Shown here piece after piece: positions 33,639 to 50,342 of a stretch of 64,000 nt of DNA. The notes under the pieces are model-generated. The model was not told where the DNA came from. It saw only the letters and a list, made by a program, of their open reading frames with translations, and made no database searches. Source of the stretch: Candidatus Dojkabacteria bacterium (GTDB lineage Bacteria; Patescibacteriota; Dojkabacteria; J137); NCBI GenBank assembly GCA_025999215.1, contig AP024679.1:36007-100006 (forward strand), read 5' to 3'. How positions within the stretch are numbered: the first letter of the stretch is position 1; each line of letters begins with the position of its first letter. The translations under genes and the position numbers were made by a program.

Positions 33639-34088
33639 ATGCCAGAAATTATGCCAAATTATAACCAACAAGAAATACCCGATAGGTTAAAGGAGGGAAT
33701 ACGGTGGTTAATTAACAAACTTAGCCCTATCTATAATCAGGATGTCAAAGAAGGACCCTTGCCTTTAATGAAAATCTTAATAAATGAAGAAAAACGTCAA
33801 CAAGATTTGGACTACATTAAAAGGATTGCTAAATATTGGCAAAATTACAGGAATTATATACAAAATAACTCAAAAGAGATTATAATAAATCAACTAAAGG
33901 AACTTTTAACAATTACAGATGGGTTCTATGGAATAGAAGAAATTGAAGGATTAACTCAACCTCCTTTTAACTTTGATGGTAGTAATCCACCATATAATAC
34001 TGAACAACTTGCTGAAATGCTTGTTCAGATATTAGATATTTTACCAAAATTATTGAACCAACTTGATCAAACCCCAGATGAATTCTAA
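33639..34088 (+). CDS. hypothetical protein (149 aa)
   Basis: ORF only. Confidence 0.3.
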   Translation: MPEIMPNYNQQEIPDRLKEGIRWLINKLSPIYNQDVKEGPLPLMKILINEEKRQQDLDYIKRIAKYWQNYRNYIQNNSKEIIINQLKELLTITDGFYGIEEIEGLTQPPFNFDGSNPPYNTEQLAEMLVQILDILPKLLNQLDQTPDEF

Positions 34089-37348: not shown

Positions 37349-39841
37349 TTAAGTATTTTTTACAACTTGAAATTTACCGTTTTTATAATCAATTATAACT
37401 TTATCACCACTCGCTATTTCTTCTTTTAGCAATGCCTCAGCAAGTAAATCGTCAATTTCTTTTTGCACTACTCTCCTTACTGGTCTAGCACCAAACTCTG
37501 GTTGATAACTAATTAATGCCAACTCTTCAATTGCTTTTTTTGTTACTTCAAGCTCAATATTTTGATCTTTCATCATTTTCTTAGTCTTGTTCAAGAAAAG
37601 TTCAACAATTTTTATAATTTGATCTGGCGATAACGCTTGGAATACTATGATTTCATCAAGCCTGTTTAAAAATTCAGGTCTAAAATGTTTTTTCAATAGT
37701 TCAAAAATTGCTGCCTTAACATCATCCCAATTCGGAACGAGTTCCTTAGTTTCTTTCATCTTAATTATTTTTGTATCATTTTCCTTTTTCATTGAATCAA
37801 CCATTTTCCCTATTTGTTGAGCACCAAAAGCACTTAAGATTAAATCTGAACCAATATTGCTCGTAGCAATAATAATCGTATTTTTAAAATCCACAGTTCT
37901 ACCTTTTCCATCAGTTAGCTTTCCATCATCCATAACTTGAAGCAATATATTAAACACATCAGGATGAGCTTTCTCTATCTCGTCAAAAAGAATAACTGAG
38001 TATGGTTTTCGTCTAACTTTCTCAGTTAACTGACCACCTTCATCATAACCCACATAACCAGGTGGGGATCCAATTAAACGAGTTACCGCGAATTTTTCCA
38101 TATACTCACTCATATCAATTCTAATCATTGCATCCTCATCACCAAAAACAAGTTCTGATAAAGCTTTAGCAAGCTCAGTTTTTCCAACTCCTGTTGGACC
38201 CAAAAATAAAAATGAGGCAATAGGTCTGTTAGGATCTTTCATTCCAGTTCTAGCTCTTCTGATTGCTCTAGCCACAAGATGCACGGCTTCATCCTGTCCT
38301 ATCACTCTTTTGTGTAATTCATCTTCAAGATTCAAAAGTCTATCTTTTTCCTCTTTATTTAGCTCAGTTATTGGAATACCTGTCATTCTTGAAATAATTT
38401 CATGTATATCACTCACTTTAACAACAGGAGTACCTGTACCTCGCTTTCGTTGCCACTCTTCCTCTATTGGCTTCATTTGTTCTTTGATTTTTTCAATTTC
38501 AACCTTTATTTCAGCTGCTTCTTTATGCTGTCCTGCTCGTGTTAAAGCTTCTCTCTCAGCTTCTAGCTTATTAATCTCATTTTTGTATTCTCTAAGCTCA
38601 TTTGGCTCACTTGTAAAATTTAGTTTAACTCGACTACAAGCTTCATCAAGTACATCAATAGCTTTATCTGGTAAAAATCTATTTTTTATGTACCTGTGAG
38701 ATAGTTCTGAAGCTGCGGCTATTGCTTCATCATCGATTTTTAACTTATGATGAGCCTCATAACGCTCTTTTAAACCTTTTAAAATTTTTATAGTATCTTC
38801 AACACTTGGCTCATTTATGAGCACAGGTTGAAATCTTCTTTCTAAAGCTGCATCTTTTTCAATATATTTTTGATATTCATTTAGAGTTGTTGCTCCAATT
38901 ACTTGCAACTCTCCTCTTGCTAAAGCGGGTTTGATCAAATTTGAAAAATCTAGTTCTCCCTGTTGAGCTCCAGAACCAACAATTGTATGTAATTCATCAA
39001 TAAACAAAATAACCTTTCTTTCTACTTTTTGTAATTCATCGAGTAATTTTTTTGCTCTTTCTTCAAATTCACCTCTATATTTCGATCCAGCAACCAAACC
39101 TGCAAGATCAAGCGCTTTAACTTTTTTATCTTTAAGCACTTCTGGTACTTGACCATTTACTATCCTCAAAGCCAGACCTTCCGCTATTGCTGTTTTACCG
39201 ACTCCTGGTTCTCCTATCAAAACAGGGTTGTTCTTTTTTCTTCTTGACAAAATTTCTATAACCCTTGTTATTTCCTCATCTCTTCCAATCACAGGATCAA
39301 TTTTGTCTTCCATAGCAAGTGCAGTTAGATCTTTTGTAAACTCATCCAATGTTGGTGTTTCAGTTTCACCTAAATTTTTTCCTTCTTTATCGCCTTGCCC
39401 AACAATTTTTATTACAGCTTGTCGCGCTTGTGGATGCGTTATTGCGTACTTTCTCAAAATTTGTGCAGCAATTCCCTCGCTTTCTAAAATTAATCCTAAA
39501 AACAAATGTTCAGTTCCAATGTAGTTGTGATTCAATTCAAGTGCTTCTCTATAAGCTAACTGAACAACTTGTTGCGCCCTTGGTGAAAAGGAAGGTTTAT
39601 CAATTGAAAAATTTCCAACAGAACACTGCTTATCAACCACATTTTTTAATTCTTCAACCTTTATTCCAAGCTCCTTAAAAACCCTATTCATTACCACATC
39701 ATCAGATGTTAAAGCATACAGCAAGTGTTCGGTGTCAACTGACCGCTGTTTTTTTGAAACGGCATATTCTACCGCATTCTGCAGTGCTGTTTCTGTTCTT
39801 TTGGCAAATAGATCTGATAGGTTCATACCTAATTTTAGCAC
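37349..39841 (-). CDS. Clp/Hsp100 AAA+ chaperone (ClpB/ClpC family; short ~75-aa middle domain resembles ClpC more than ClpB)
   Basis: Two Clp_N repeats; NBD1 [13 protein letters not shown]; NBD2 [14 protein letters not shown]; sensor and arginine-finger regions; 830 aa. Confidence 0.9.
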
Positions 39842-39865
39842 ACTTTATTAAAGAGTGCTAATTTT

Positions 39866-40867
39866 TTATGAATTTAGAATTTTTTTTATTTCAGGTAATA
39901 AATCAATAAATTTATATATTTCGTTTTTTTGTACTGAATAGACTTCTCCATGATATCCAAGTGCTGAAATACAGTAGTTAAATGCTTTTGTAGTTCCATT
40001 ATTTTGAAAATTTTGTGGTTCTACGCTTGGAATGGTTTGAGATGAAATAAAAGCCTTGAAAATGTTTAAATCATCTAACTTTTCTCTCAAGACTGGATGC
40101 AAAATATGGCTTCCTGCTCTGTAAACTATCATGGGTCCCTCTCCAATTTTTGGCACCACATCTTCATTTGACATCATATGATTAGATGGAAAATAGTCAA
40201 GCACACAACAATATTCAACCGTGTATTCATAACCAATACCGTTGCCAGCATGATTTTGCATTTCTTCATCATCGTGAAAAGCAATGCAAGCATTATCTAA
40301 GAAATTTTTACTTGTTTTGAGTATGGTGAGTAGTGAAAAAATTGAAACAGCATTGTCAATACTACTCGAAAAAATGGCAGAATCAGTCTCCCAGTATTCT
40401 TTTTTAAATGATCCAAAAACTCCAGGTACTATTCCATTTTTTTCTAACTCTTCTTTGCTATTAAATCCAAGGTACAAAAAAAGTTCCGAAAATTTTTCAA
40501 TATTTTCAGACTTGAGATTACTTTTATGGTAAATTCCTCCATGGAAAATTCCCTTTTTAGTTTTGACATAAACAGCAGAATGATCAAATCTATTGGGAAA
40601 AACCCAGCCAATAGGTAAAATACTACATGTTCCATCTTCAAAAACCTTTGTTATTTGAAAACCAACCTGATCAATATGAGCGCTAAACATAACTTTAGAA
40701 TTTCTTGGATCACCAACAATTATAGTTCCAAATCTATTTACAAAATATTCAACACCGATATCATCTAATTCTCTTAAGATAAAATTTTTCATACCTTCTG
40801 TGTCACCAGTAACAGAATGTATCTTGCTTAATTTTTCAAGCAGTTTAAAACTTAATTTATTTTTCAT
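39866..40867 (-). CDS. M42 family metallo-aminopeptidase (TET/FrvX-like)
   Basis: Carries SVTGDTEGM...AHIDQVGFQITK and has the M42 length and layout. Confidence 0.75.
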   Translation of the reverse strand: MKNKLSFKLLEKLSKIHSVTGDTEGMKNFILRELDDIGVEYFVNRFGTIIVGDPRNSKVMFSAHIDQVGFQITKVFEDGTCSILPIGWVFPNRFDHSAVYVKTKKGIFHGGIYHKSNLKSENIEKFSELFLYLGFNSKEELEKNGIVPGVFGSFKKEYWETDSAIFSSSIDNAVSIFSLLTILKTSKNFLDNACIAFHDDEEMQNHAGNGIGYEYTVEYCCVLDYFPSNHMMSNEDVVPKIGEGPMIVYRAGSHILHPVLREKLDDLNIFKAFISSQTIPSVEPQNFQNNGTTKAFNYCISALGYHGEVYSVQKNEIYKFIDLLPEIKKILNS

Positions 40868-41798
40868 TATTAATCAAATTAAAAATTTTAAATGTTGTTT
40901 CTTCAATGTCTTTTTCACTAAAAAAATTAATGTCATCCAATTTTGAATGATAAATTGTCATCAGTTTATTCAAATCACAAGAAAACATTCGGGTTTGACT
41001 GAAAACAGACTGATCTTTGATTGGAAAACCTAGCATCAAAGTTTCTACATCATTATAAACTTTAAGCTCACCAAAAGCTATGCAATCAACGATTAAATGT
41101 TTAGCTTTGTTAAAGATTGTACTATATTCTTTTTCAAATTGCCTATATCCATAACCCCAATATGTAGGAAAATCGTAAGAGAGTTCTTCATTTCCAGAAA
41201 ACACAAAAAGTGAATTCTCGAGAATTAAAGAATTTTTTGATAAAAGATTTAGCATCACTAAAGTTCCACTCAAATTATCAACGACTCCATTTTCAACTGT
41301 ATCAAGGTGAGAATAAACGATAAATTCAGGATTTTGAAAATTTCCAACCAAAACATTAGCGGTAGTATAATTGTATTTTTCAACTTCAATGTAGCTTTTT
41401 ATGTTTCGGCTTTTCTTTGTTTTTGATGAATTCAAAAACACTTGGCTTGACCGCCCATGAAGGAGTCCTTTCGTAAAGGTGTGTTTGGAGATTGCGCTGC
41501 AATGTGGATTAGTAGCGATATAATTTCTTTCGAAATCTAAGTCTTCTTCAAACGTACTTAACGTAAAATCATTTTGCTCACCTGATTCAAAGCATATCGG
41601 CTCCGCTTCAATCTTTTGACCATCAATTTCTAACCCATAATCCTTGTAAACGGGAACACTATTTTTAAATTGTTGGATAACAGGGTTAAATTCTTTCAAA
41701 AAATCAACCAAAATTTCTGTTGCCGCCTCTTCTCCTTGGGCATTTCTTTTAATCAGGTTTTTTTGAATAACTTTTTCTAGAAATTTTTTATAATTCAT
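40857..41798 (-). CDS. M28-like zinc peptidase
   Basis: Motifs YSHLDTV (HxD), DNLSG and GNEELSY (EE) in the order expected for M28 metal ligands. Confidence 0.45.
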   Translation of the reverse strand: MNYKKFLEKVIQKNLIKRNAQGEEAATEILVDFLKEFNPVIQQFKNSVPVYKDYGLEIDGQKIEAEPICFESGEQNDFTLSTFEEDLDFERNYIATNPHCSAISKHTFTKGLLHGRSSQVFLNSSKTKKSRNIKSYIEVEKYNYTTANVLVGNFQNPEFIVYSHLDTVENGVVDNLSGTLVMLNLLSKNSLILENSLFVFSGNEELSYDFPTYWGYGYRQFEKEYSTIFNKAKHLIVDCIAFGELKVYNDVETLMLGFPIKDQSVFSQTRMFSCDLNKLMTIYHSKLDDINFFSEKDIEETTFKIFNLINNEK

Positions 41799-41820: not shown

Positions 41821-42912
41821 TTATACTTCATTTTTTACAAAATTCTGGAGAATATTATAGAACTCAATCAAACTATCTATATCTACCCATTCCTCGTCGC
41901 TTGCAATTCCACCTCCGATTGGTCCAAACTCTACTGCTGGTATCCCTATACGTGCGTAGTGCCTTGCATCGGAAGAACCCATAGCAGAATAAAATTTTTG
42001 TTTTCTTTTTGTTATTTGCTCAGTGATAGATTTTAATTGTTGCAAATAAGCATTATTTTCTTCAACATTTAGACACGGTTCGTCAACTACAATCTCAACA
42101 CCATCCGCCCTACTTTCTTTTTAATTTTTTCTATCAAACCTTCTTTATCTTCTGGTAAATATCTCAAATCCAAACTTAAAATACATTCATCAGGAATTTT
42201 ATTGAAAGCTTTATTGTTTGTTTCAATGTTACTAAAATTTACAGAAGTTACCCAGACATTTTTTTCTTGAGTTTTTGGAATAGGAAACAATTTCAAAATT
42301 CTTCTCAATTGCTTCACTTGCTTTGCTGGATTGAATTTAGCCCAAGCCAAGGATAAGCTCCATGAGCTGTTTTTCCTTTAAATTTTAGTTTAAGCCATAC
42401 TATTCCTCTTGCCCTTTATTGACTATATCAAAATTTGTAGCTTCACCTGCTATCACAAACTTTGCTCGAACGCCTTGATCAATCTGATATTTCGTTCCAT
42501 AAAACCCTCCCACCTCTTCGTCAGTAACTATTTGTAGGGCAACTGAAGTGTTGGTTTTGTGAGCTATATCTCTAAAAGCATAAACCATACTAGCAATATT
42601 GCCTTTCATATCCATGCTCCCAATACCATAAATTTTATTATCTTCTATTCTAGCCTGATATTTTTCAAATTTTGCAGGTATGACATCTAAGTGCCCGTTA
42701 AGGATTAAATCAAAGTTTCTGTGTCCTGTTGATTTGTTGTGAATCAGTAAACTTTTGTAGCCATTACTTTCAAACTCTTCGATCGTATAGTCAGTTAGCT
42801 CACTTTTAACAATTTCTAAACTATTTTCTAATTCGGCAAAATTAGTAGGGTTAGTTTTTATTTCAATGAGTTTAACTGCAAGGTCGATTATTTTTTGTTT
42901 TATTTGTTTCAC
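41821..42912 (-). CDS. M20 family metallopeptidase (ArgE/DapE/CPG2-like), split into three ORFs by two frameshifts
   Basis: Piece 1 carries GHLDVIPAK...YGIGSMDMKG. Pieces 2 and 3 carry the C-terminal dimerisation and catalytic part (...GSSDARHY...IPAVEFGP). Gaps lie at about 42060 and about 42370. Confidence 0.65.
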
Positions 42913-42973: not shown

Positions 42974-43426
42974 TTATGGTTCAAGCGCTAATTCGTGTTG
43001 TCTTGAACTTTCTCTTTTAGACGCATTTCCGCCTGAGCCGGCTCTTATTTCTTTCCAATTGTAAAAATTTTTTCCAAATTTTTCATAAAATTCTTGAAAT
43101 TTGTCATTAAAAATTTCAGAAATTTGCGCCTTAATTTTGAAATCTGAAATCTGCTTTCCTGCAGCAATCATGAAAATCCCTTTTTTAGCTAGGCGTTTCT
43201 GTTCTCGCTTTGATTTTGGCTGCCGACAAACCTGCAATGCAATATTTATTTCAATTTCATTAATTTTAAACTTTAATAGCACATCTGTCTTCGCGCCATA
43301 ATCCAAGTCAGGACTTGCTTCTACTGTAAACCCCATTGCTTTGGCTATTTCTTTAACACGCTCTTCAGCTCTCTTACCTACTTCTTGAGCTTCTCTCCCT
43401 TGATTTTGTCTTAGCTTTTCTTTCAT
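42974..43426 (-). CDS. small hypothetical protein, possibly restriction-endonuclease-like (PD-(D/E)xK-type fold, loosely reminiscent of archaeal Holliday-junction resolvase Hjc)
   Basis: The N-terminus GKRAEERVKEIAKAMGFTVEASPDLDYGAKTDVLLKF loosely resembles Hjc/restriction-endonuclease-fold N-termini (GS.ER.....L...GF.V.R...S.....D.IA). No canonical E-x-K (catalytic lysine) triad was identified, so the call is weak. Confidence 0.3.
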   Translation of the reverse strand: MKEKLRQNQGREAQEVGKRAEERVKEIAKAMGFTVEASPDLDYGAKTDVLLKFKINEIEINIALQVCRQPKSKREQKRLAKKGIFMIAAGKQISDFKIKAQISEIFNDKFQEFYEKFGKNFYNWKEIRAGSGGNASKRESSRQHELALEP

Positions 43427-43482
43427 AGAAATGAATACACTAACGAATTAAAATATTTAAAAATGCATAAATAAACTATTTT

Positions 43483-44955
43483 TTATGCTTCTAATTGATT
43501 AACATCTCTTGAATGCGTTTGTTGGTTTGGAACATCCTTTCTTACGTTCGTCATATCAACAAAAAATTTAAAAATCTCGAAAATAATGTGTTGCAAAGCT
43601 TGTAACAAAGCTTCTTTAGATTCAAATTTATTTTCCTTAATTCGGTTTATCGCATCTTGGTGAATATTAATGATCATAGAAACATATTCGCTCCTTTGAT
43701 TATCGTCTAATCTTATGTAGTGACCTGTATTTTCTACATAGCCGTTTATTTGAGATAAATCAGGGATTTGAAGAGCGCCAGCATCCCTAAAAATATCATT
43801 TACAATTTCTAAAACTGCCACTACGACATCTTTGCTAGGTAATAAGAGAGAAACATCTTCTTGCCACTTTTCTTGAATATATGGTTGTTCTGGTGGGACT
43901 CCTCTCAGCGTAAGTCCATGTGTTTGGGCTTGGTTTATGAAATCTTGCAGTGGATTTATCATGAAGCCTCCAAGATCTTCCATCCAAAAAACATCAACAT
44001 CAAGCATTGCATTTAATGCCATGAAAATTCCTGGGTATATGCCTGAATAATAAGTTTCAGCAGTTGGTCGACATAAAACAGTTTCGTTACTCCTTATTGC
44101 TTCAATTAGTGCGTTCTGATCAACTGTCTCAAACTCATTATTTCCATCTGAATATGTGTTCATTTTCCGGAAAACTCGACCTTGACTTACTACATAATAT
44201 TGTGTTGTTGTACCTTCCCCATAAATCACAAATCCAAATGGTTTATTTGGTAGCGAAACTTGGTCATAATTCTCAGTTGGAGGAGAACTTAGTCCTTCTA
44301 ATATATTTAAGACTGCATCCTTGAAAAAAGCGTCTAAATCTAGTTCTGGTACTTTACAAACAGGAATCATTTCTACGTACATATTCATAAGTTTGGTATA
44401 AAAATCTTTTAAGTCCAAAATTTCATCAGAGTTATTATATTCGGTATCTTTACCCAACAAAGTTTTTGCCATATTATTAGCATTTTTTGGAACAACAGAA
44501 TGATTATGCAATGGGTGACCTGCTTTCCCTCCATTTTCATGAAGACTTTTATGCTGGGATATCCTAGGCCTTACACTTTTATCTTGGATGTAAGGTCTGT
44601 CTGATGGCATATTGAATTTTAGAACTTGTGGAATTATAGTTCTATACTTCTCTATATTTTGTGACGAAAATATATCATTAAGATCTAGAACTATATATTT
44701 TGCGCCAACTAATGAAGCTGCAATTGCGCCTGCTATATTTCTCACATTTGGAACATTTAAGTGCTGGACTGATATTACTACTGGATCTGTTTCACCATTT
44801 AATATTGTTTGAATATATTTTCCAAAATGTGACCGTACTAAATCACAATACTCTCTAATACCAAACATATTCTCCATAAATTCATTAATAATCTTAATAC
44901 GCTCGCCTCTATTTTCATAATTTGGCTCTGATTCATTAAAGTAATTTAGCTCCAT
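43483..44955 (-). CDS. hypothetical protein (490 aa), no recognisable domain; composition is less AT-biased than its neighbours
   Basis: Long intact ORF. It is preceded by the promoter / structured leader / terminator described below. Confidence 0.4.
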   Translation of the reverse strand: MELNYFNESEPNYENRGERIKIINEFMENMFGIREYCDLVRSHFGKYIQTILNGETDPVVISVQHLNVPNVRNIAGAIAASLVGAKYIVLDLNDIFSSQNIEKYRTIIPQVLKFNMPSDRPYIQDKSVRPRISQHKSLHENGGKAGHPLHNHSVVPKNANNMAKTLLGKDTEYNNSDEILDLKDFYTKLMNMYVEMIPVCKVPELDLDAFFKDAVLNILEGLSSPPTENYDQVSLPNKPFGFVIYGEGTTTQYYVVSQGRVFRKMNTYSDGNNEFETVDQNALIEAIRSNETVLCRPTAETYYSGIYPGIFMALNAMLDVDVFWMEDLGGFMINPLQDFINQAQTHGLTLRGVPPEQPYIQEKWQEDVSLLLPSKDVVVAVLEIVNDIFRDAGALQIPDLSQINGYVENTGHYIRLDDNQRSEYVSMIINIHQDAINRIKENKFESKEALLQALQHIIFEIFKFFVDMTNVRKDVPNQQTHSRDVNQLEA

Positions 44956-44985
44956 CTATTCAAACATAAAAGCTATAACAAAAAC

Positions 44986-45009
44986 TAAAAAATCTCCCTT
45001 TCGGGAGAT
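44986..45009 (-). terminator. rho-independent terminator (stem UCUCCC-GAAA-GGGAGA followed by UUUUUU) located 30 nt upstream of the 43483..44955 start codon
   Basis: Perfect 7-bp inverted repeat ATCTCCC/GGGAGAT at 44992-45009 with an A6-7 run at 44986-44992 on the plus strand, which is a U-run on the minus strand. Confidence 0.5.
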
Positions 45010-45091
45010 TAATATTTATTTACCATCTCCCCTACCTCTAGATATTCACTAGAGATAAGATGATATTTGAGCAGATGGTAAAGTTTTTCAT
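44986..45091 (-). ncRNA. candidate small structured RNA or cis-regulatory leader (~106 nt), containing a 17-codon mini-ORF (MKNFTICSNIILSLVNI)
   Basis: Minus-strand sigma70-like promoter TTGACA-17nt-TAGAAT (plus coordinates 45097-45125). Predicted transcript GUGUCAUGAAAAACU[UUACCAUCU]GCUCAAAUAUCAUCUUAU[CUCUAG]UGAAUAU[CUAGAG]GUAGGGG[AGAUGGUAA]AUAAAUAUUAA[UCUCCC]GAAA[GGGAGA]UUUUUU. It has a 9-bp outer stem, a nested 6-bp hairpin and a terminator hairpin followed by a U-run. Confidence 0.35.
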
Positions 45092-45096
45092 GACAC

Positions 45097-45125
45097 ATTC
45101 TAGCATAGTCAGCGTAGTTTGTCAA
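45097..45125 (-). promoter_or_regulatory. sigma70-like promoter (-35 TTGACA, 17-nt spacer, -10 TAGAAT) reading leftward
   Basis: Plus strand 45120-45125 TGTCAA (reverse complement TTGACA); 45097-45102 ATTCTA (reverse complement TAGAAT); the spacer 45103-45119 is 17 nt. Confidence 0.4.
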
Positions 45126-45189
45126 CACATTTTGCTCTAAAACTCAAAACATTATTAACAAATTATGCTTTTTAATTTATACTTTTATA

Positions 45190-48171
45190 ATGATCTCAGA
45201 AAGTTTAAGGAAAATAGTCAAAAAATCTAACATCCTTGCAATTTTATTTGCATTAGTTGCAATTTTTTCAGTAAGCAATATTTCGAGTCAAATAGAAGAA
45301 GGGAGAATTATACCTTTCGGGATACTCAACAATGTTTTTGCTGAATTTTCTCGGTCTGCACCAAACAGCACGAAACTTGCTAAAAATTTATCAACATCAT
45401 CAAATATCCAAGACCAATCGGATAGATGCCAAATTGTTGACCCAAATAGACCTGATATTTTAACTGCTTGGGAATACGAGGGAGTCAGTGGCGCTCAAAT
45501 TAAAGGAGATAATATTGCTGGAGCTAACCCTGGAGTTTCTTATGGAGCAGGCTTTGATGCGCCCAAAGATGAGACCGTTAGAGATTACGCAAGTAGTCTC
45601 GGAATGAGTTATAATCTTGCTATATTTAGTGCACCAAATGAAGTTGGCAATGCGATTGCATTTGTGAATGCCAACATTGATGCTGGATTCATACCCATCG
45701 TAAGGCTTTGCGTTGCAGTTGCTGATTCATGCCAATTTAATAGCCCAAACGATGTAATTGGTTTTTATACAGCGCTTCACGATGGAGCTAACGGAGAATT
45801 TATAGCTATGGTTGGACCAAATGAGCCCGGAACTGGTGAAGATGGTTACATTGAAATGAATGGATTTGGCGGAATCAATTCTTATGCTCAAATAATAAAT
45901 TTTGTAAACGAAGCTGCTACAGGACTTCAAAAGTATAGAAGCATTAATGGAGGAAAAATGTATTTATCCCCTGGAGCTTTTAACCTAACCAATCCAATAA
46001 ACCGTGATGTATATGAGTATCTCTACAATCCATCAAACCCAAAGCTCAAAATTAATTTGTTTGATTATCTTATGGGAAATGTCTATGCTCAAGGCGAGCC
46101 TGCTGTTAAAAATGTGCCCTACCCTTACGCAACTTACAGAGATGGAGAAAACCATGATGGAAATGGACTTGGTAATTTTGCGGAAGAAAATAATATTCCT
46201 GTGATTTTGACAGAATTTGGCATTTTCAAAGAAGCAGGTGATAGTAAAACAGTTCTTTTAAATGAAGCTATAGAATCTTTTAAGTTATTTTGCGCAGATG
46301 AAACAATTGCTGGAGTGTTGTTTTTTCAATCATTTTTAAATGACGATGGAACAGTTTTAATAAGTGATATAGAGCAAAGAAAGGAATTTCATGGGTTAAC
46401 CAAACAAGAACATAGCTTAATAATTGGAGACTGTACGAAATCTAGTCCATTTAAAGATTGGGCATGGGCTAACTGTAATTTTGACTCTTGTATCTATAAA
46501 GATTATGAGTATGATCCAAAATCAACTGCATCAGCTTGTGGTGTTGAAGATAAACCTTTAACGGGTGATGGTAAACCTGCACTCAAAGTCGTATGCTCTA
46601 ATGGAATTTGTAGTACCAGAGCTATTAAGACTATCGATATTGGAATGCCAATTAGACATTTTGGAGGAAATAGTTTAAATGGTTCACCAACTCACCAGTA
46701 CCCATCAATTTGTAGTGAACTTTCAACTCAATTTGCAAATAAAAATTATGACACCATAAACCAATTTGCAGGTGTAATTAACATGGGTGGAACCCAATAC
46801 CCAATGCCATGGCTTGGATCGGCTATAAATTGCGCGAGCCAATTATTGCTAGCTACTCAAGAATTTGCATACCTTACACCAGATAAATATACATTTAACC
46901 CACATCCAGGAAGTAAAATTGAAGAAATCGTTAACGAAATAAACTCAGACGAAATTTACGGCATGCCATGGGAAACATACAACGGCGCTATACCAGGCGA
47001 ACCACTTTATGATGCAGCGCCAACCATGAATGAAACGCGCTCAATTATCGATGAAGCAGCAATATGCTTGATGCGCGATGAAGCAACTGATCTGGACGAT
47101 AGATTATTTTGCCTTGATAAACGAAAAAATCCCAACCAAGTATTTGCTTTCAACGATTATGATCCGTACAAAAGCGATTTAGAGTGGGAAAAGTCTACCT
47201 GCAACACAAATATGGTCTATAGAAAAGACCCCAAAAATATGATCTATGGACCTGAAATTCAAGTGTCAGACATTGAGACAGTAGAAACTATTTCTGAATC
47301 AGAACTATGTTATGAATTTGCACGCAGAAACTCAGAAGGAGTAACCTCAAAAATACTAGCAGGTGTTGATTATCCTAGGTATTTCCCTGATGGTGACACA
47401 TCTAACGCTACTCCAAATTGTCAAATAGATCGTACAAAATTTGTAAATGGAGTTTCATGTGCTGCTCTTAGTTGTTCAAGCTCTGATATTTTAAAAGGAA
47501 AATGTAAGGCTGACTTAAGGTTTAAAGATTGTTTTAACTATGTAAATTCTTCACAATCAAGTGAACATCAAATTTATTTGAAAGCAGATAGCAATGTTTT
47601 CGCGCAAGTTCCACAAGTTGAAATAGAAGGAATTTACGATGCTTTGTACTGGATGTACCTACGCACTCAAAATTCTTTCAAAAATAAAAAATTCAAAATA
47701 GTATTTAGAGAAAACATCGGAATGAATGTTGAGGTAAACTCTAAAATTAGGGATGCCAACAGAGGAAAAGATGATGCGCTTAATCCGAAATTTCCAGCTG
47801 GCGAGTCCGAAAATCTGTACGCTCAGGAATTAAACTCTTGTGAAGTGCCAGACAACATGTACTCGTATAACAACCTGCTAGCAAAAAATAGCCCAATTAA
47901 AACTCAATATCAATACTTTGATTGGCTTGGATATTTGGACATTTTGCAAGAAATACAGAAAGTTTATTTTGGTAACACTCATACTTGCCTGATATCAACT
48001 TTGAGACAAAATCTAGACTCTTTGGTACAGAGGGCAGCTCCAAATAGCGATAGAGAGTTTATTTTGGTGAGTGGTTCCGCGTTAAAAACAATGAGTTATC
48101 CCCTATTCACTTGTGATGAACTCAACTTAAGAATAGCCAAAGATCCATATTTTACGCTTATATGGAAATGA
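45190..48171 (+). CDS. large secreted protein: N-terminal TIM-barrel glycoside hydrolase of clan GH-A (GH5-like), plus a ~600-aa Cys-rich C-terminal region of unknown function
   Basis: Signal/TM ILAILFALVAIFSV. The MVGPNEPG (NEP acid/base motif) and ILTEFGIF (nucleophile motif) sit about 135 aa apart. There are many conserved Cys residues in the C-terminal half. Confidence 0.5.
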   Translation: MISESLRKIVKKSNILAILFALVAIFSVSNISSQIEEGRIIPFGILNNVFAEFSRSAPNSTKLAKNLSTSSNIQDQSDRCQIVDPNRPDILTAWEYEGVSGAQIKGDNIAGANPGVSYGAGFDAPKDETVRDYASSLGMSYNLAIFSAPNEVGNAIAFVNANIDAGFIPIVRLCVAVADSCQFNSPNDVIGFYTALHDGANGEFIAMVGPNEPGTGEDGYIEMNGFGGINSYAQIINFVNEAATGLQKYRSINGGKMYLSPGAFNLTNPINRDVYEYLYNPSNPKLKINLFDYLMGNVYAQGEPAVKNVPYPYATYRDGENHDGNGLGNFAEENNIPVILTEFGIFKEAGDSKTVLLNEAIESFKLFCADETIAGVLFFQSFLNDDGTVLISDIEQRKEFHGLTKQEHSLIIGDCTKSSPFKDWAWANCNFDSCIYKDYEYDPKSTASACGVEDKPLTGDGKPALKVVCSNGICSTRAIKTIDIGMPIRHFGGNSLNGSPTHQYPSICSELSTQFANKNYDTINQFAGVINMGGTQYPMPWLGSAINCASQLLLATQEFAYLTPDKYTFNPHPGSKIEEIVNEINSDEIYGMPWETYNGAIPGEPLYDAAPTMNETRSIIDEAAICLMRDEATDLDDRLFCLDKRKNPNQVFAFNDYDPYKSDLEWEKSTCNTNMVYRKDPKNMIYGPEIQVSDIETVETISESELCYEFARRNSEGVTSKILAGVDYPRYFPDGDTSNATPNCQIDRTKFVNGVSCAALSCSSSDILKGKCKADLRFKDCFNYVNSSQSSEHQIYLKADSNVFAQVPQVEIEGIYDALYWMYLRTQNSFKNKKFKIVFRENIGMNVEVNSKIRDANRGKDDALNPKFPAGESENLYAQELNSCEVPDNMYSYNNLLAKNSPIKTQYQYFDWLGYLDILQEIQKVYFGNTHTCLISTLRQNLDSLVQRAAPNSDREFILVSGSALKTMSYPLFTCDELNLRIAKDPYFTLIWK

Positions 48172-48309
48172 AAATTTAAAAATTACCTGCGTTACTGATT
48201 TAAGCGATGAAAGATACTCTGATGAATTAGGCGAATTTTTATGTTCCAAAGGATACGAAGTACCTGGCATTTGTGATAATTTATTCTGCCCTGTTCAAGT
48301 CAAGCCAAG

Positions 48310-50342
48310 TAAATACTGGTAACTGTCGTTGAGGACGGAATTATTGACGAAGGAGGAGTTTACGTGAAAGATTGACAAAGACGCTAAATATGTTGCCAGC
48401 CAAAGTAATGGCGGAAGTATTGTTGAACCAATTGAAAATTTTGTAGAAAAAACAGGTGCCAGTGTTGCTATAAATGCAAATTTATACAACCAATTTGGTG
48501 TTCCAGAAGGGCTGTACGGAGGGCAAGGTCAGATTTCATATGTAGTCCCCAGGTCCAGAGCGAAGTGACTACAAAATTTCAATGCTTATTGGTAATTTAA
48601 ATACTGATGCTCCGTACATAGCTGGTAATGTTGTAGCTGAACGTGATAATAAATTTTATTTAGTTGATATAAGTAAGTGGAATGCTTTGGATGCTAATAC
48701 TATTAACGCACTTACCCAAGGTACGTTAGCAGGAATAGATGTAGCAATTACCGGTTCGGCTATAGTTGGTGTAGATTCTCAAATTTATAAAGATTACACA
48801 ACAATGTCTTTAGAAGAATTTAATCAGAAACACTCATATTCTGACTACTTACAAAAAACTGTACGTACTATTATTGGATGGGATAACAGATCTAATGTTG
48901 TATTTTTAATTTTAGATAACGCAGACTTTTATACAATGCTTGAAAAGTCAGCTGAGGTAGGCATATCTTACGGAATAGTGATGGATGGAGGTGTATCATC
49001 ACAATTGTTTTATGAAAATGGATTTGAAAATGTTGATAGCAAGCTAAGAGAAAATAATCCAAAAGTTTATGATCCATCAGGTCAAGGACGTAGCGTAGCA
49101 GGTTATGTTGGAGCAATTTTAAATCAAACTTCTCAACAACTAACAAGAGCTTCCGCTACGGGCAATTTTTCGCTTATTTATCCTACAGATTATAAAGAAA
49201 TTGAGCATGAATCACTTGATTACGGTTATGAAAGATCAGAAACTTGGACGCATGCAGGACTTGATTTTGTAGGTACAAAAGGATCACCTATTTATGCATC
49301 AGCTTCAGGAACAGTTATTGTGGCTAGACCCGTAGAGCCAAACCACAACAGAGACGCTCAACCCTACGGAAATTTTGTGATGATAGAACACTCTAATGGT
49401 TATGTAACGCTTTATGCTCACTTGGATAAAATTTCGGTTAAAAAGGGTGATATTGTGCTTGCTGGAGACACGATAGGAACAATGGGTAATACTGGAAATG
49501 TATATTGTGAAGGTAACAGGCGTCCTAGTGGTCCTGATGATGATACTTGTGGTGTTCACTTACACTTTGAACTTAGAAAAAATAAAAATTGTAAATGGGA
49601 TGGTAACCCTCTAACTTCAGTCTTTGGTAGTTGTACTATGGATCCAAAACCATTTCTCTCTGGGTCAGTAAGAGGTAGACAAGTCTTTTGCGGTGTAGAT
49701 AACACTCTTAATCTTGATCAAACTGGTGTGCTTGGATGTAATTTGAACATAAAAGATATTAATGACAACCCAGATTTTGCAAAATTAACACCAATAATCT
49801 CAACTAGAATCAAATCTTACAACCTTGATGATAATTTGAGTCATACTTGGCTATATTCACCATACGAAAGTGAAGAATTATTTAACCAGATTAAAGATCA
49901 AAAATTTAATGGATCGTTTGATGCAGCAAAATTACATGCTCAATTCAGAAAAGAAGTTACAGATTTTGTAATCAGTAAATCAAAACAATTAGGAGTAAAT
50001 CCAAGATTAGCATTAACTCTTTGGATAGAAGAAAGTGGAGGAAGCGCGCTTGGCAGAGCTGCAATGGGTTGTCTATATTTCAGAGGCACTGCTCAAGAAA
50101 CATCTACTCTACCCCTTGATTATGATCCACTTGATGAAAGTTATAAACAAAAAACTTTAGATCATTTGAATGAGCAAATTGAGTGTTTAGCAAGTTATGT
50201 AAATGAATTTGATAACTTTAGAGAATTCATGTGTACATATTCTGGTGAATCTGATAGAAAAAATTGTCAAATATTTACAAACAATCCTAATTTTCCGGTA
50301 AATGTTTGTAGAATTTATAATTATCAAGAACAAAAATTCTAA
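48310..50342 (+). CDS. peptidoglycan hydrolase: phosphodiester-glycosidase (NAGPA-like) domain fused to an M23 (LytM/lysostaphin-like) metallopeptidase domain; N-terminal region frameshifted at least twice
   Basis: NAGPA-like KTGASVAINANLYNQFGVPEGLYGG...GIVMDGGVSSQLFYENG. M23 HAGLDFVGTKGSPIYASASGTVIVA...GNFVMIEHSNGYVTLYAHLD...GNTGNV...GVHLHFE. The upstream pieces (ILVTVVEDGIIDEGGVYVKD / KIDKDAKYVASQSNGGSIVEP...) lie in different frames. Confidence 0.6.

What the first reader, a model, noticed from the sequence alone, without database searches (positions are those of the whole stretch)
42974..44955. Unknown 490-aa protein plus small restriction-endonuclease-fold candidate protein under the structured leader
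The 490-aa protein has no recognisable domain and visibly less AT-biased codon usage than its surroundings, which suggests acquisition or strong constraint. The downstream 150-aa protein begins with a motif (GKRAEERVKEIAKAMGF...DYGAKTDVLL) loosely reminiscent of restriction-endonuclease-fold proteins such as Hjc, although no canonical E-x-K catalytic triad was identified. A nuclease-like small protein plus a large unknown behind a terminator-controlled leader would fit an uncharacterised defence-like or regulated stress module.
Basis: inference. Interest (0 to 1): 0.5.

Follow-up and report, generated by a model that had tools for sequence, protein, structure and literature searches.

The report
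Orphan gene pair in Dojkabacteria genome
Two genes of unknown function in a tiny uncultured hot-spring bacterium are real and native to its chromosome, but no test supported the idea that they form an acquired nuclease-based defence module.

Summary
Both ORFs exist exactly as described: 490 aa at 43483-44955(-) and 150 aa at 42974-43426(-). They are hypothetical proteins 093 and 092 of Candidatus Dojkabacteria MAG KatS3mg085. Neither matches Pfam, NCBIfam, PHROGs, PADLOC or PDB sequences.

The codon-usage claim fails. GC3 is 0.232 and 0.258 against a window mean of 0.218 ± 0.036, and both genes score like native genes.

The 490-aa protein has one relative among about 15 billion proteins, a 514-aa protein (E 2e-14, 24-28% identity). 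It sits at the same position in a collinear Dojkabacteria contig. It is the fastest-evolving gene in that block; neighbours are 42-87% identical.

The 150-aa protein has no detected relative. The related genome carries an unrelated 255-aa gene in its place, so the pair is not conserved.

Its Hjc-like N-terminal motif is real, but the E-x-K motif reads Q-V-C. Comparison with an Hjc profile gives 2% probability. The structure models were too poor to use.

The leader is strongly structured (z = -5.3) and fits a ribosome-dependent attenuator with a 17-codon uORF. It is absent from the related genome.

Verdict: these are ordinary lineage-restricted orphan genes heading an aminopeptidase gene string. 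Their function is unresolved and interest is low.

The parts
43483..44955 (-). 490-aa ORF (KatS3mg085_093). A soluble, acidic protein (pI 5.0) with no hydrophobic segment long enough to span a membrane. It belongs to a two-sequence family together with the 514-aa protein P0003.
   Evidence: The best-conserved stretch is R296-PTA-x-TYY-x3-YP-x15-W-x-EDL.
42974..43426 (-). 150-aa ORF (KatS3mg085_092). A basic protein (pI 9.6) with no detected homologue. It carries an Hjc-like N-terminal motif (G17, E21, G32-F33, D48), but has Q65-V66-C67 where E-x-K would be.
45097..45125 (-). Promoter-like site TTGACA-17-TAGAAT with a TG extension, facing the 490-aa gene. An equivalent site (TTGACA-17-TAAAAT) precedes the 514-aa gene in L001.
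45038..45091 (-). 17-codon upstream ORF, MKNFTICSNIILSLVNI*. Its AUG lies 6 nt after the -10 hexamer, so it may be translated from a leaderless start. This is inferred.
45019..45082 (-). Large leader stem (arms 45019-45028 and 45073-45082, 10 of 10 complementary) enclosing an inner hairpin (45033-45057). Predicted energy is -25.9 kcal/mol. Its 3' arm, GGGGAGAUGGU, can instead pair with the 5' arm of the terminator (45003-45009 with 45025-45031), giving an antiterminator of -11.5 kcal/mol.
44981..45010 (-). Terminator-like hairpin AAUCUCCC-GAAA-GGGAGAUU followed by UUUUAGUUUU. Predicted energy is -12.2 kcal/mol. It lies inside the 5' leader, 26 nt upstream of the start codon of the 490-aa gene.
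41821..42912 (-). M20 peptidase gene broken into three reading frames. It lies directly downstream of the 150-aa gene and has no counterpart in L001.
40857..41798 (-). 313-aa protein with a weak M28-like match (a clan MH metallopeptidase family). It is 56-57% identical to the 314-aa gene of L001. Besides the 490-aa gene, it is the only gene of the inserted block shared by both genomes.
39866..40867 (-). M42 aminopeptidase gene (333 aa), the last gene of the same-strand string. It is present in the window only.

Best explanation
These are two native, lineage-restricted orphan genes of a Candidatus Dojkabacteria chromosome. They are not an acquired two-gene module.

The 490-aa gene is a real, vertically inherited, very fast-evolving gene. 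It encodes a soluble acidic protein of unknown fold. In the only two genomes that carry it, it is the first gene of a same-strand string of closely spaced genes that also contains an M28-like metallopeptidase homologue. In the window the string also holds a broken M20 gene and an M42 gene. This block lies between a giant secreted peptidoglycan-hydrolase gene and clpC. In more distant Dojkabacteria those two genes are direct neighbours.

The 150-aa gene is a strain-specific, basic orphan protein in a variable slot of that string. It keeps the first half of a PD-(D/E)xK-like motif but lacks the E-x-K element, so it is at most a degenerate, probably non-catalytic relative.

In this genome the string appears to be controlled by a ribosome-dependent transcription attenuator. 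A strong promoter starts a transcript at or near the AUG of a 17-codon uORF. If no ribosome is present, or if a ribosome reaches the uORF stop codon, the large stem or the terminator forms and transcription stops 26 nt before the 490-aa gene. If a ribosome pauses inside the uORF, the 3' arm of the stem is free to pair with the terminator's 5' arm, and transcription reads through.

Shown: the ORFs, their coding character, the absence of known domains, the single homologue, the synteny and the RNA pairings. Inferred: the attenuator logic (about 0.4). Also inferred, with about 0.2 probability, is that the 490-aa protein works with the co-transcribed aminopeptidase-like proteins in peptide or protein turnover.
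For: - Identity and rarity: both proteins are hypothetical proteins of Dojkabacteria MAG KatS3mg085 on an 862-kb contig. An exhaustive HMMER search of 1.84 billion representatives found one genuine relative of the 490-aa protein, P0003 (E 2.1e-14).
- Homology: the two proteins align from end to end.
- Synteny: P0003 lies in a collinear contig in the order giant NAGPA/M23 gene, divergent promoters, 514 aa, 255 aa, M28-like 314 aa, clpC, M16 peptidases.
- Insertion: in L003 and L004 the giant gene and clpC are directly adjacent, so the block is specific to this sub-lineage.
- Evolutionary rate: orthologue identities between the window and L001 are 42-87%, with one at 30%. The 490/514 pair is lowest at 24%.
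- Native character: host-typical GC3 and codon log-likelihood.
- Gene spacing: gaps within the string are 56, 61, 22 and -11 nt, and no terminator-like site lies inside it. In L001 the gaps are 17 and 23 nt.
- Leader: z = -5.3. The stem, antiterminator and terminator are -25.9, -11.5 and -12.2 kcal/mol. Masking nt 1-30 to 1-48, as a ribosome inside the uORF would, yields the antiterminator. For masks 1-30 and 1-42 this was seen on the transcript truncated before the terminator's 3' arm; for masks 1-42 and 1-48 the full-length fold also gives it. With mask 1-30 the full-length fold still forms the terminator. Masking 54 nt or more, or none, yields the terminator.
Against: - The function of the 490-aa protein rests only on gene neighbourhood in two genomes that are collinear by descent. 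That is weak evidence.
- The leader is not conserved. The orthologous 5' region in L001 has the same promoter but no significant structure (z = -0.7), no terminator and no uORF at the transcription start.
- The uORF has no run of any one codon. It has 4 Ile in 17 codons, which is unremarkable in an AT-rich genome.
- clpC has its own CIRCE-embedded promoter, so linkage to clpC may be only positional.
- The fast evolution of the 490-aa gene, together with a broken M20 gene next door, could equally mean relaxed constraint.
- The 150-aa protein was searched only with the word-indexed tool, not exhaustively, so distant relatives may exist.
Confidence: 0.5

Rival explanations
1. One reading: the 150-aa protein is a PD-(D/E)xK (Hjc-like) nuclease. 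It works with the 490-aa protein as an uncharacterised, horizontally acquired defence-like module switched by the leader.
For: The N-terminal motif has exactly the spacing of P. furiosus Hjc (G-x3-E-x10-G-F-x-V), followed by an Asp at the start of a predicted strand. The Hjc sequence was verified as PDB 1GEF and the motif was read. The low-confidence model has the helix-strand-strand-strand-helix order of that fold. The protein is basic, with pI 9.6.
Against: - hhalign against an alignment of four Hjc sequences gives 2% probability and aligns only residues 16-40.
- There are no Pfam, NCBIfam, PADLOC or PDB sequence hits, even at E <= 10.
- The third motif is Q65-V-C67, with no lysine.
- Codon usage is native.
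- The related genome lacks the 150-aa gene.
- Nothing similar is found in phages, plasmids or viral contigs.
Confidence: 0.05
2. Decay model: the block between the giant gene and clpC is a region of relaxed selection. The M20 gene is already a pseudogene. The 150-aa ORF is a young or dying strain-specific gene of little consequence. The 490-aa gene evolves fast because it is only weakly constrained. The leader hairpins are incidental.
For: The M20 gene is split over three frames. The neighbouring giant gene also carries several indels. The 490/514 pair has the lowest identity of all orthologues. The 150-aa and 255-aa genes are each confined to one genome. The leader is not conserved.
Against: Both ORFs are intact and keep full native coding statistics. 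The 490/514 pair keeps its length, its end-to-end collinearity and a sharply conserved motif block at residues 296-328. The leader's stability (z = -5.3), its perfect 10-nt and 8-nt stems and its matched alternative pairing are hard to explain by chance.
Confidence: 0.25
3. Conflict-system model: a fast-evolving first gene followed by a non-homologous, swappable small gene (150 aa basic here, 255 aa acidic in L001) is a toxin-immunity or other antagonistic pair in a chromosomal hotspot.
For: The 490/514 pair diverges very fast. Its least conserved part is residues 336-410, at 17% identity. The second gene is replaced between the two genomes. The location is between two conserved genes that are adjacent in other Dojkabacteria.
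Against: No signal peptide, transmembrane segment or known toxin, immunity or secretion domain was found. The C-terminal ends of the 490- and 514-aa proteins are still collinear and similar (E 0.013), unlike swapped toxin tips. There are only two genomes, so 'variable slot' rests on a single comparison.
Confidence: 0.07
4. ClpC-accessory model: the 490-aa family is an adaptor or regulator of ClpC, analogous to mecA or to the ctsR-mcsA-mcsB genes upstream of clpC in Firmicutes.
For: The gene lies upstream of clpC on the same strand in both genomes, with no predicted terminator in between.
Against: hhalign of the family against B. subtilis MecA (verified as PDB 3J3R) gives 0.8% probability. No McsB or other adaptor domains appear in Pfam. 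clpC keeps its own promoter overlapping a CIRCE operator in both genomes. Other Dojkabacteria have clpC without this gene.
Confidence: 0.1

Closest known systems
Archaeal Holliday-junction resolvase Hjc and the wider PD-(D/E)xK nuclease superfamily (Hjc, YraN, NERD, Mrr-type)
   Same: Residues 17-35 of the 150-aa protein follow G-x3-E-x10-G-F-x-V with the same spacing as P. furiosus Hjc (G5, E9, G20-F21). An Asp (D48) then opens a hydrophobic strand, as D33 does in Hjc. The predicted secondary-structure order is helix, three strands, helix.
   Different: Where Hjc has E46-V-K48, this protein has Q65-V-C67. The profile comparison gives 2% probability, and no Pfam or PDB sequence match exists. 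The loops are 3-4 residues longer. The C-terminal 60 residues are unrelated and probably disordered.
Leader-peptide transcription attenuators (trp, his, phe and ilv leaders of Proteobacteria)
   Same: The element has a promoter, a short uORF overlapping segment 1, mutually exclusive 1:2, 2:3 and 3:4 pairings, and a terminal GC-rich hairpin with a U-tract just before the first structural gene. The best, though non-significant, Rfam match was Phe_leader (E 0.7, 23 bits against a gathering score of 55).
   Different: There is no run of regulatory codons. The uORF appears to start at the transcript's 5' end. The downstream genes are not biosynthetic. There is no conservation in the one orthologous locus, and no Rfam family reaches its threshold.
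Lineage-specific orphan (ORFan) genes of Candidate Phyla Radiation genomes
   Same: The proteins are small-genome hypothetical proteins with no domain. Distribution is extremely narrow: two sequences for the 490-aa family and one for the 150-aa protein, among about 15 billion proteins. Codon usage is native and the chromosomal context is syntenic.
   Different: Nothing distinguishes these genes from that class, apart from the unusually elaborate leader in front of them.
clpC-upstream accessory genes of Firmicutes (mecA; the ctsR-mcsA-mcsB-clpC operon)
   Same: The genes lie upstream of clpC on the same strand.
   Different: There is no sequence or profile similarity. clpC here has its own CIRCE/HrcA-type operator and promoter.

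Membership tests
PD-(D/E)xK nucleases (Hjc-like) | Significant sequence or profile match to a family model | tested here: not met
   Pfam, NCBIfam and PDB phmmer gave no hit at E <= 10. hhalign against a four-sequence Hjc alignment gave 2% probability over 25 columns.
PD-(D/E)xK nucleases (Hjc-like) | Catalytic signature E ... D ... (D/E)-x-K on helix 1, strand 2 and strand 3 | tested here: not met
   E21 and D48 are present at Hjc-like spacing, but the third element reads Q65-V66-C67 and has no lysine. This was read from the sequence and compared with 1GEF as verified.
PD-(D/E)xK nucleases (Hjc-like) | Alpha-beta-beta-beta-alpha-beta core fold | tested here: inconclusive
Known anti-phage defence systems | Match of a component to a defence-system model | tested here: not met
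   PADLOC gave nothing for the 150-aa protein. For the 490-aa protein it gave only a 13-bit Csm2 hit at E 0.019 over 50 residues.
Known anti-phage defence systems | Conserved co-occurrence of the component genes in other genomes | tested here: not met
   In the only genome with a 490-family gene, the next gene is an unrelated 255-aa protein. The 150-aa protein has no match in any fetched locus.
Horizontally acquired island | Composition or codon usage deviating from the host; mobility genes; tRNA or repeat borders | tested here: not met
   GC3 z-scores are +0.39 and +1.1, and the codon log-likelihood is within the host range. There is no tRNA in the window. The locus is collinear with L001 over more than 20 kb. 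No phage, plasmid or viral matches were found.
Leader-peptide transcription attenuator | Promoter, short uORF, alternative terminator and antiterminator pairings, and a terminator with a U-tract upstream of the first gene | tested here: met
Leader-peptide transcription attenuator | Regulatory codon run in the uORF, and conservation of the element in orthologous loci | tested here: not met
   The uORF MKNFTICSNIILSLVNI has no codon run. The L001 leader is unstructured (z = -0.7) and has no terminator.
Leader-peptide transcription attenuator | Actual premature termination and read-through in vivo or in vitro | not testable with these tools
   This needs transcript mapping or in vitro transcription.
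ClpC adaptor proteins (MecA, McsB) | Homology to the MecA or McsB families | tested here: not met
   hhalign of the 490/514 alignment against MecA (3J3R) gave 0.8% probability. No MecA or ATP:guanido phosphotransferase Pfam hits were found.

The most novel reading that the evidence does not exclude
The 490/514-aa family is a new protein class, private to one Dojkabacteria sub-lineage. It works with the co-transcribed M28-like aminopeptidase homologue in amino-acid scavenging or protein turnover. In this genome it is switched on by a previously undescribed ribosome-sensing attenuator whose leader peptide is translated from a leaderless transcript start. That would be a way for a bacterium that depends on externally supplied amino acids (as is typical of this group; my own knowledge, not tested here) to couple translation stress to peptidase expression. 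A less likely variant is that the fast-evolving gene plus its swappable neighbour is a new antagonistic (toxin-immunity or defence) pair.
Probability: 0.12. Interest if true: 0.55.

Novelty: new member of a known kind. Interest (0 to 1): 0.2.

Why it matters
As it stands, it matters little. Candidate Phyla Radiation genomes are full of domain-less, narrowly distributed genes, and these two add no testable function.

Three points have some value:
- The 490-aa family is rare even by the standards of this group, with two sequences among about 15 billion proteins. It is clearly inherited and intact, which makes it a clean example of very fast protein evolution at a fixed chromosomal position.
- The leader is a well-formed candidate attenuator in a phylum where gene regulation is almost unstudied. 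If transcript data confirmed it, that would be a modest but real addition.

Tried and rejected
- Domain and family searches of both proteins, of the 514-aa homologue, and of six sub-fragments of the 490- and 514-aa proteins plus an N-terminal fragment of the 150-aa protein, against Pfam, PHROGs, PADLOC, NCBIfam and PDB sequences. Only scattered, mutually inconsistent hits with E > 0.003 appeared.
- Word-indexed homologue searches with each protein, and with the 490/514 alignment. Each returned only the query itself.
- AlphaFold2 on single sequences. pLDDT was 36.1 and 41.9, which is unusable.
- Locus scans. Two genome-collection scans gave nothing with the M28-like neighbour and three Dojkabacteria-type loci with the giant-protein alignment. 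Two metagenome scans gave nothing. Two viral scans gave nothing.
- tblastn against the phage and plasmid collections. No match.
- Testing whether the 255-aa gene of L001 is a diverged counterpart of the 150-aa gene. BLASTP gave E = 90 and phmmer gave nothing.
- A polymorphic-toxin reading with a swapped C-terminus. Rejected, because the C-terminal ends remain collinear and similar.
- The hit P0004 (E 3e-7). Rejected as a homologue. It is a repeat protein whose GTTAQYY blade motif matches one 32-residue hairpin of the 490-aa protein five times over.
- Rfam on the leader and on the whole window. Nothing reached threshold.
- Literature searches for KatS3mg and for Dojkabacteria with ClpC. Nothing relevant.
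Full report
**What is there.** The window is AT-rich (30.5% GC). It comes from an 862-kb contig of the metagenome-assembled genome Candidatus Dojkabacteria bacterium KatS3mg085. The two ORFs are its hypothetical proteins 093 (490 aa, 43483-44955, minus strand) and 092 (150 aa, 42974-43426, minus strand). Both coordinates and the quoted motif are correct.

Both ORFs behave as genuine coding sequence. A codon model trained on 38 long genes of the window gives them 0.238 and 0.239 per codon. Real genes score 0.220 +/- 0.040 (leave-one-out), 73 wrong-frame ORFs score -0.02 +/- 0.13, and all five alternative frames of each ORF are strongly negative.

**The composition claim.** GC3 is 0.232 for the large gene (z = +0.39) and 0.258 for the small one (z = +1.1), against 0.218 +/- 0.036 for 56 ORFs. 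The somewhat higher total GC comes from first codon positions. The whole 37-53 kb stretch shares it, including clpC and a glutamyl-tRNA synthetase gene. There is no compositional sign of acquisition.

**Known families.** Neither protein hits Pfam, NCBIfam, PHROGs, PADLOC or PDB sequences at any credible level. Six sub-fragments of the large protein and its homologue give no hits that agree with each other. tblastn against phage and plasmid collections and pattern scans of viral contigs are empty. Single-sequence AlphaFold models are unusable, with pLDDT 36.1 and 41.9. Fold searches with them return noise.

**Relatives and context of the 490-aa gene.** An exhaustive HMMER pass over 1.84 billion cluster representatives found a single genuine relative, P0003 (514 aa, E 2.1e-14). 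The two align from end to end at 24-28% identity, with a sharp conserved block R-P-T-A-x-T-Y-Y-x3-Y-P-x15-W-x-E-D-L. A second hit, P0004, is a repeat protein that matches one short hairpin five times, and I discount it.

P0003 lies on a 303-kb JGI contig (L001) that is collinear with the window over more than 20 kb. The shared order is histidine kinase, GluRS, response regulator, a small ORF, a giant NAGPA/M23 secreted protein, then divergently the 514-aa gene, a 255-aa gene, an M28-like 314-aa gene, clpC and two M16 peptidases. The divergent promoter pair is also conserved: TTGACA-17-TAGAAT or TAAAAT towards the orphan gene, and TTAACA-17-TATACT towards the giant gene.

In two more distant Dojkabacteria-type contigs (L003, L004) the giant gene and clpC are immediate divergent neighbours. 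The block is therefore an insertion specific to the sub-lineage of the window and L001. In the window it holds the 490-aa gene, the 150-aa gene, a broken M20 gene, the M28-like gene and an M42 gene. In L001 it holds the 514-aa, 255-aa and M28-like genes.

Orthologue identities between the window and L001 are mostly 42-87% (clpC 87%, giant protein 68%, M28-like 57%), with one at 30%. The 490/514 pair is the lowest at 24%. The gene is old enough to be inherited, is intact in both genomes, and diverges unusually fast. The protein is acidic (pI 5.0) and has no hydrophobic segment long enough to span a membrane.

**The 150-aa gene.** No homologue was found with the word-indexed search, and its 90% cluster is a singleton. 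None of the four related loci encodes anything similar. The gene that occupies its place in L001 is unrelated (BLASTP E = 90). The proposed two-gene module therefore fails the co-occurrence test in the one genome where it can be tested.

The motif resemblance is real. I recalled the P. furiosus Hjc sequence and verified it as 100% identical to PDB 1GEF. G17, E21 and G32-F33 of the 150-aa protein reproduce the spacing of G5, E9 and G20-F21 of Hjc, and D48 opens a hydrophobic stretch as D33 does. At the position of E46-V-K48, however, the protein reads Q65-V-C67. An hhalign comparison with a four-sequence Hjc alignment gives 2% probability and aligns only residues 16-40. The protein is basic (pI 9.6). 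At most it is a degenerate, probably non-catalytic derivative of that fold. Membership in the family is not supported.

**The leader.** Between the promoter (45125-45097) and the start codon of the 490-aa gene lies an RNA that folds far better than shuffled controls (z = -5.3, 0 of 200). It has four elements:
- a 17-codon uORF (45091-45038, MKNFTICSNIILSLVNI*), whose AUG is the sixth base after the -10 hexamer;
- a large stem with perfect 10-nt arms enclosing an inner hairpin, at -25.9 kcal/mol;
- a terminator-like hairpin with a GAAA loop and a U-tract, at -12.2 kcal/mol;
- a perfect 7-nt alternative pairing between the 3' arm of the large stem and the 5' arm of the terminator, extended to an antiterminator of -11.5 kcal/mol.

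Constrained folding gives the classical attenuator logic. Masking the first 30-48 nt, as a ribosome inside the uORF would, produces the antiterminator. For masks of 30 and 42 nt this was seen on the transcript truncated before the terminator's 3' arm. For masks of 42 and 48 nt the full-length fold also gives it, whereas the 30-nt mask still gives the terminator in the full-length fold. Masking 54 nt or more (a ribosome at the stop codon), or masking nothing, produces the terminator. The 5' arm can also pair with the start-codon region of the 490-aa gene (pair I2).

This is inference from sequence. No Rfam family reaches threshold. The orthologous leader in L001 is unstructured (z = -0.7) and has no terminator. 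If the element is functional, it is specific to this lineage.

**Relation to clpC.** I first considered that the block had been inserted between clpC and its promoter, which would make the 490-aa family a candidate ClpC accessory factor. That is weakened by a near-perfect CIRCE element directly upstream of clpC: TTAGCACTC-N9-GTGTGCTAA at 39835-39861, with one mismatch, against 0.01 expected by chance. It overlaps a promoter-like site, and a weaker copy sits at the same place in L001. clpC therefore keeps its own heat-shock-type control. The family also shows no similarity to MecA: hhalign gives 0.8% probability against the verified 3J3R sequence.

The only gene that travels with the 490-aa family in both genomes is the M28-like gene, in a string of closely spaced same-strand genes without predicted terminators. 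With only two genomes that are collinear by descent, this is weak evidence for a shared function.

The best description is two native, lineage-restricted orphan genes at the head of an aminopeptidase-type gene string. The string lies between a giant cell-wall hydrolase gene and clpC, and in this genome it sits behind a plausible ribosome-dependent attenuator. A role for the 490-aa protein alongside the aminopeptidase-like proteins is my best guess, at about 0.2 probability. Relaxed constraint or decay of the region is a serious rival at about 0.25. The nuclease and defence model is unlikely, at about 0.05.

Orphan genes of this kind are common in Candidate Phyla Radiation genomes, so interest is low. 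The leader is the most noteworthy element.

Noticed in passing
window 39835-39861 (and L001 13401-13427): A near-perfect CIRCE (HrcA operator) inverted repeat, TTAGCACTC-N9-GTGTGCTAA, lies directly upstream of clpC. It has 1 mismatch, against 0.01 expected by chance. It overlaps a promoter-like TTAGCA-18-TAAAAT site. A 3-mismatch copy is at the same place in L001. clpC in this lineage therefore appears to be under HrcA-type heat-shock control. In the best-studied bacteria CIRCE usually governs groE and dnaK (my own knowledge).
   Followed up: partly
window 39824-39841: The true clpC start is probably the ATG at 39826-39824 (MNLSDLF..., matching MNIS(E/D)LF in L001, L003 and L004), not the GTG at 39841 listed by the ORF finder. 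That ATG begins 6 nt after the -10 hexamer, which suggests a leaderless mRNA.
   Followed up: partly
window 41821-42912 (-): The M20 peptidase gene is split over three reading frames: Pfam Peptidase_M20 positions 1-90, M20_dimer 48-100, and Peptidase_M20 136-205. It is a probable pseudogene and is absent from the related contig L001.
   Followed up: yes
window 45190-50342 (+), breaks at about 48152-48565: The giant secreted NAGPA/M23 protein is one 1705-aa ORF in L001. Here it maps collinearly to three different frames, with extra in-frame stops or indels concentrated in about 400 bp. The result is separate 993-aa and 586-aa ORFs. Whether this is real gene decay, a real split or a local assembly error was not resolved.
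   Followed up: partly
window 45155-45192 (+) and 45091-45125 (-): The start codons of the giant gene and of the uORF both sit 6-7 nt after a good -10 hexamer, as does the clpC ATG. This suggests that leaderless transcripts are common in this organism. None of the genes read closely here shows an evident Shine-Dalgarno sequence.
   Followed up: no
window 40857-41798 (-) and L001 12354-13298: The 313/314-aa protein matches Pfam M28 only weakly (E 8e-4, below the gathering score, over residues 156-205 only). Pattern scans of the genome and metagenome collections found no relative. It may be another lineage-restricted, highly diverged clan MH metallopeptidase homologue.
   Followed up: partly
L003 9725-9892 and L004 9328-9937: In more distant Dojkabacteria-type contigs the giant hydrolase gene and clpC are immediate divergent neighbours. 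The L003 spacer carries several inverted repeats and a CIRCE-like half-site, GAGTGCTAA.
   Followed up: no
window 33639-34088 (+): A 149-aa ORF is the only other gene in the syntenic block with very low identity to its L001 counterpart (30%). It is a second fast-evolving small gene.
   Followed up: no
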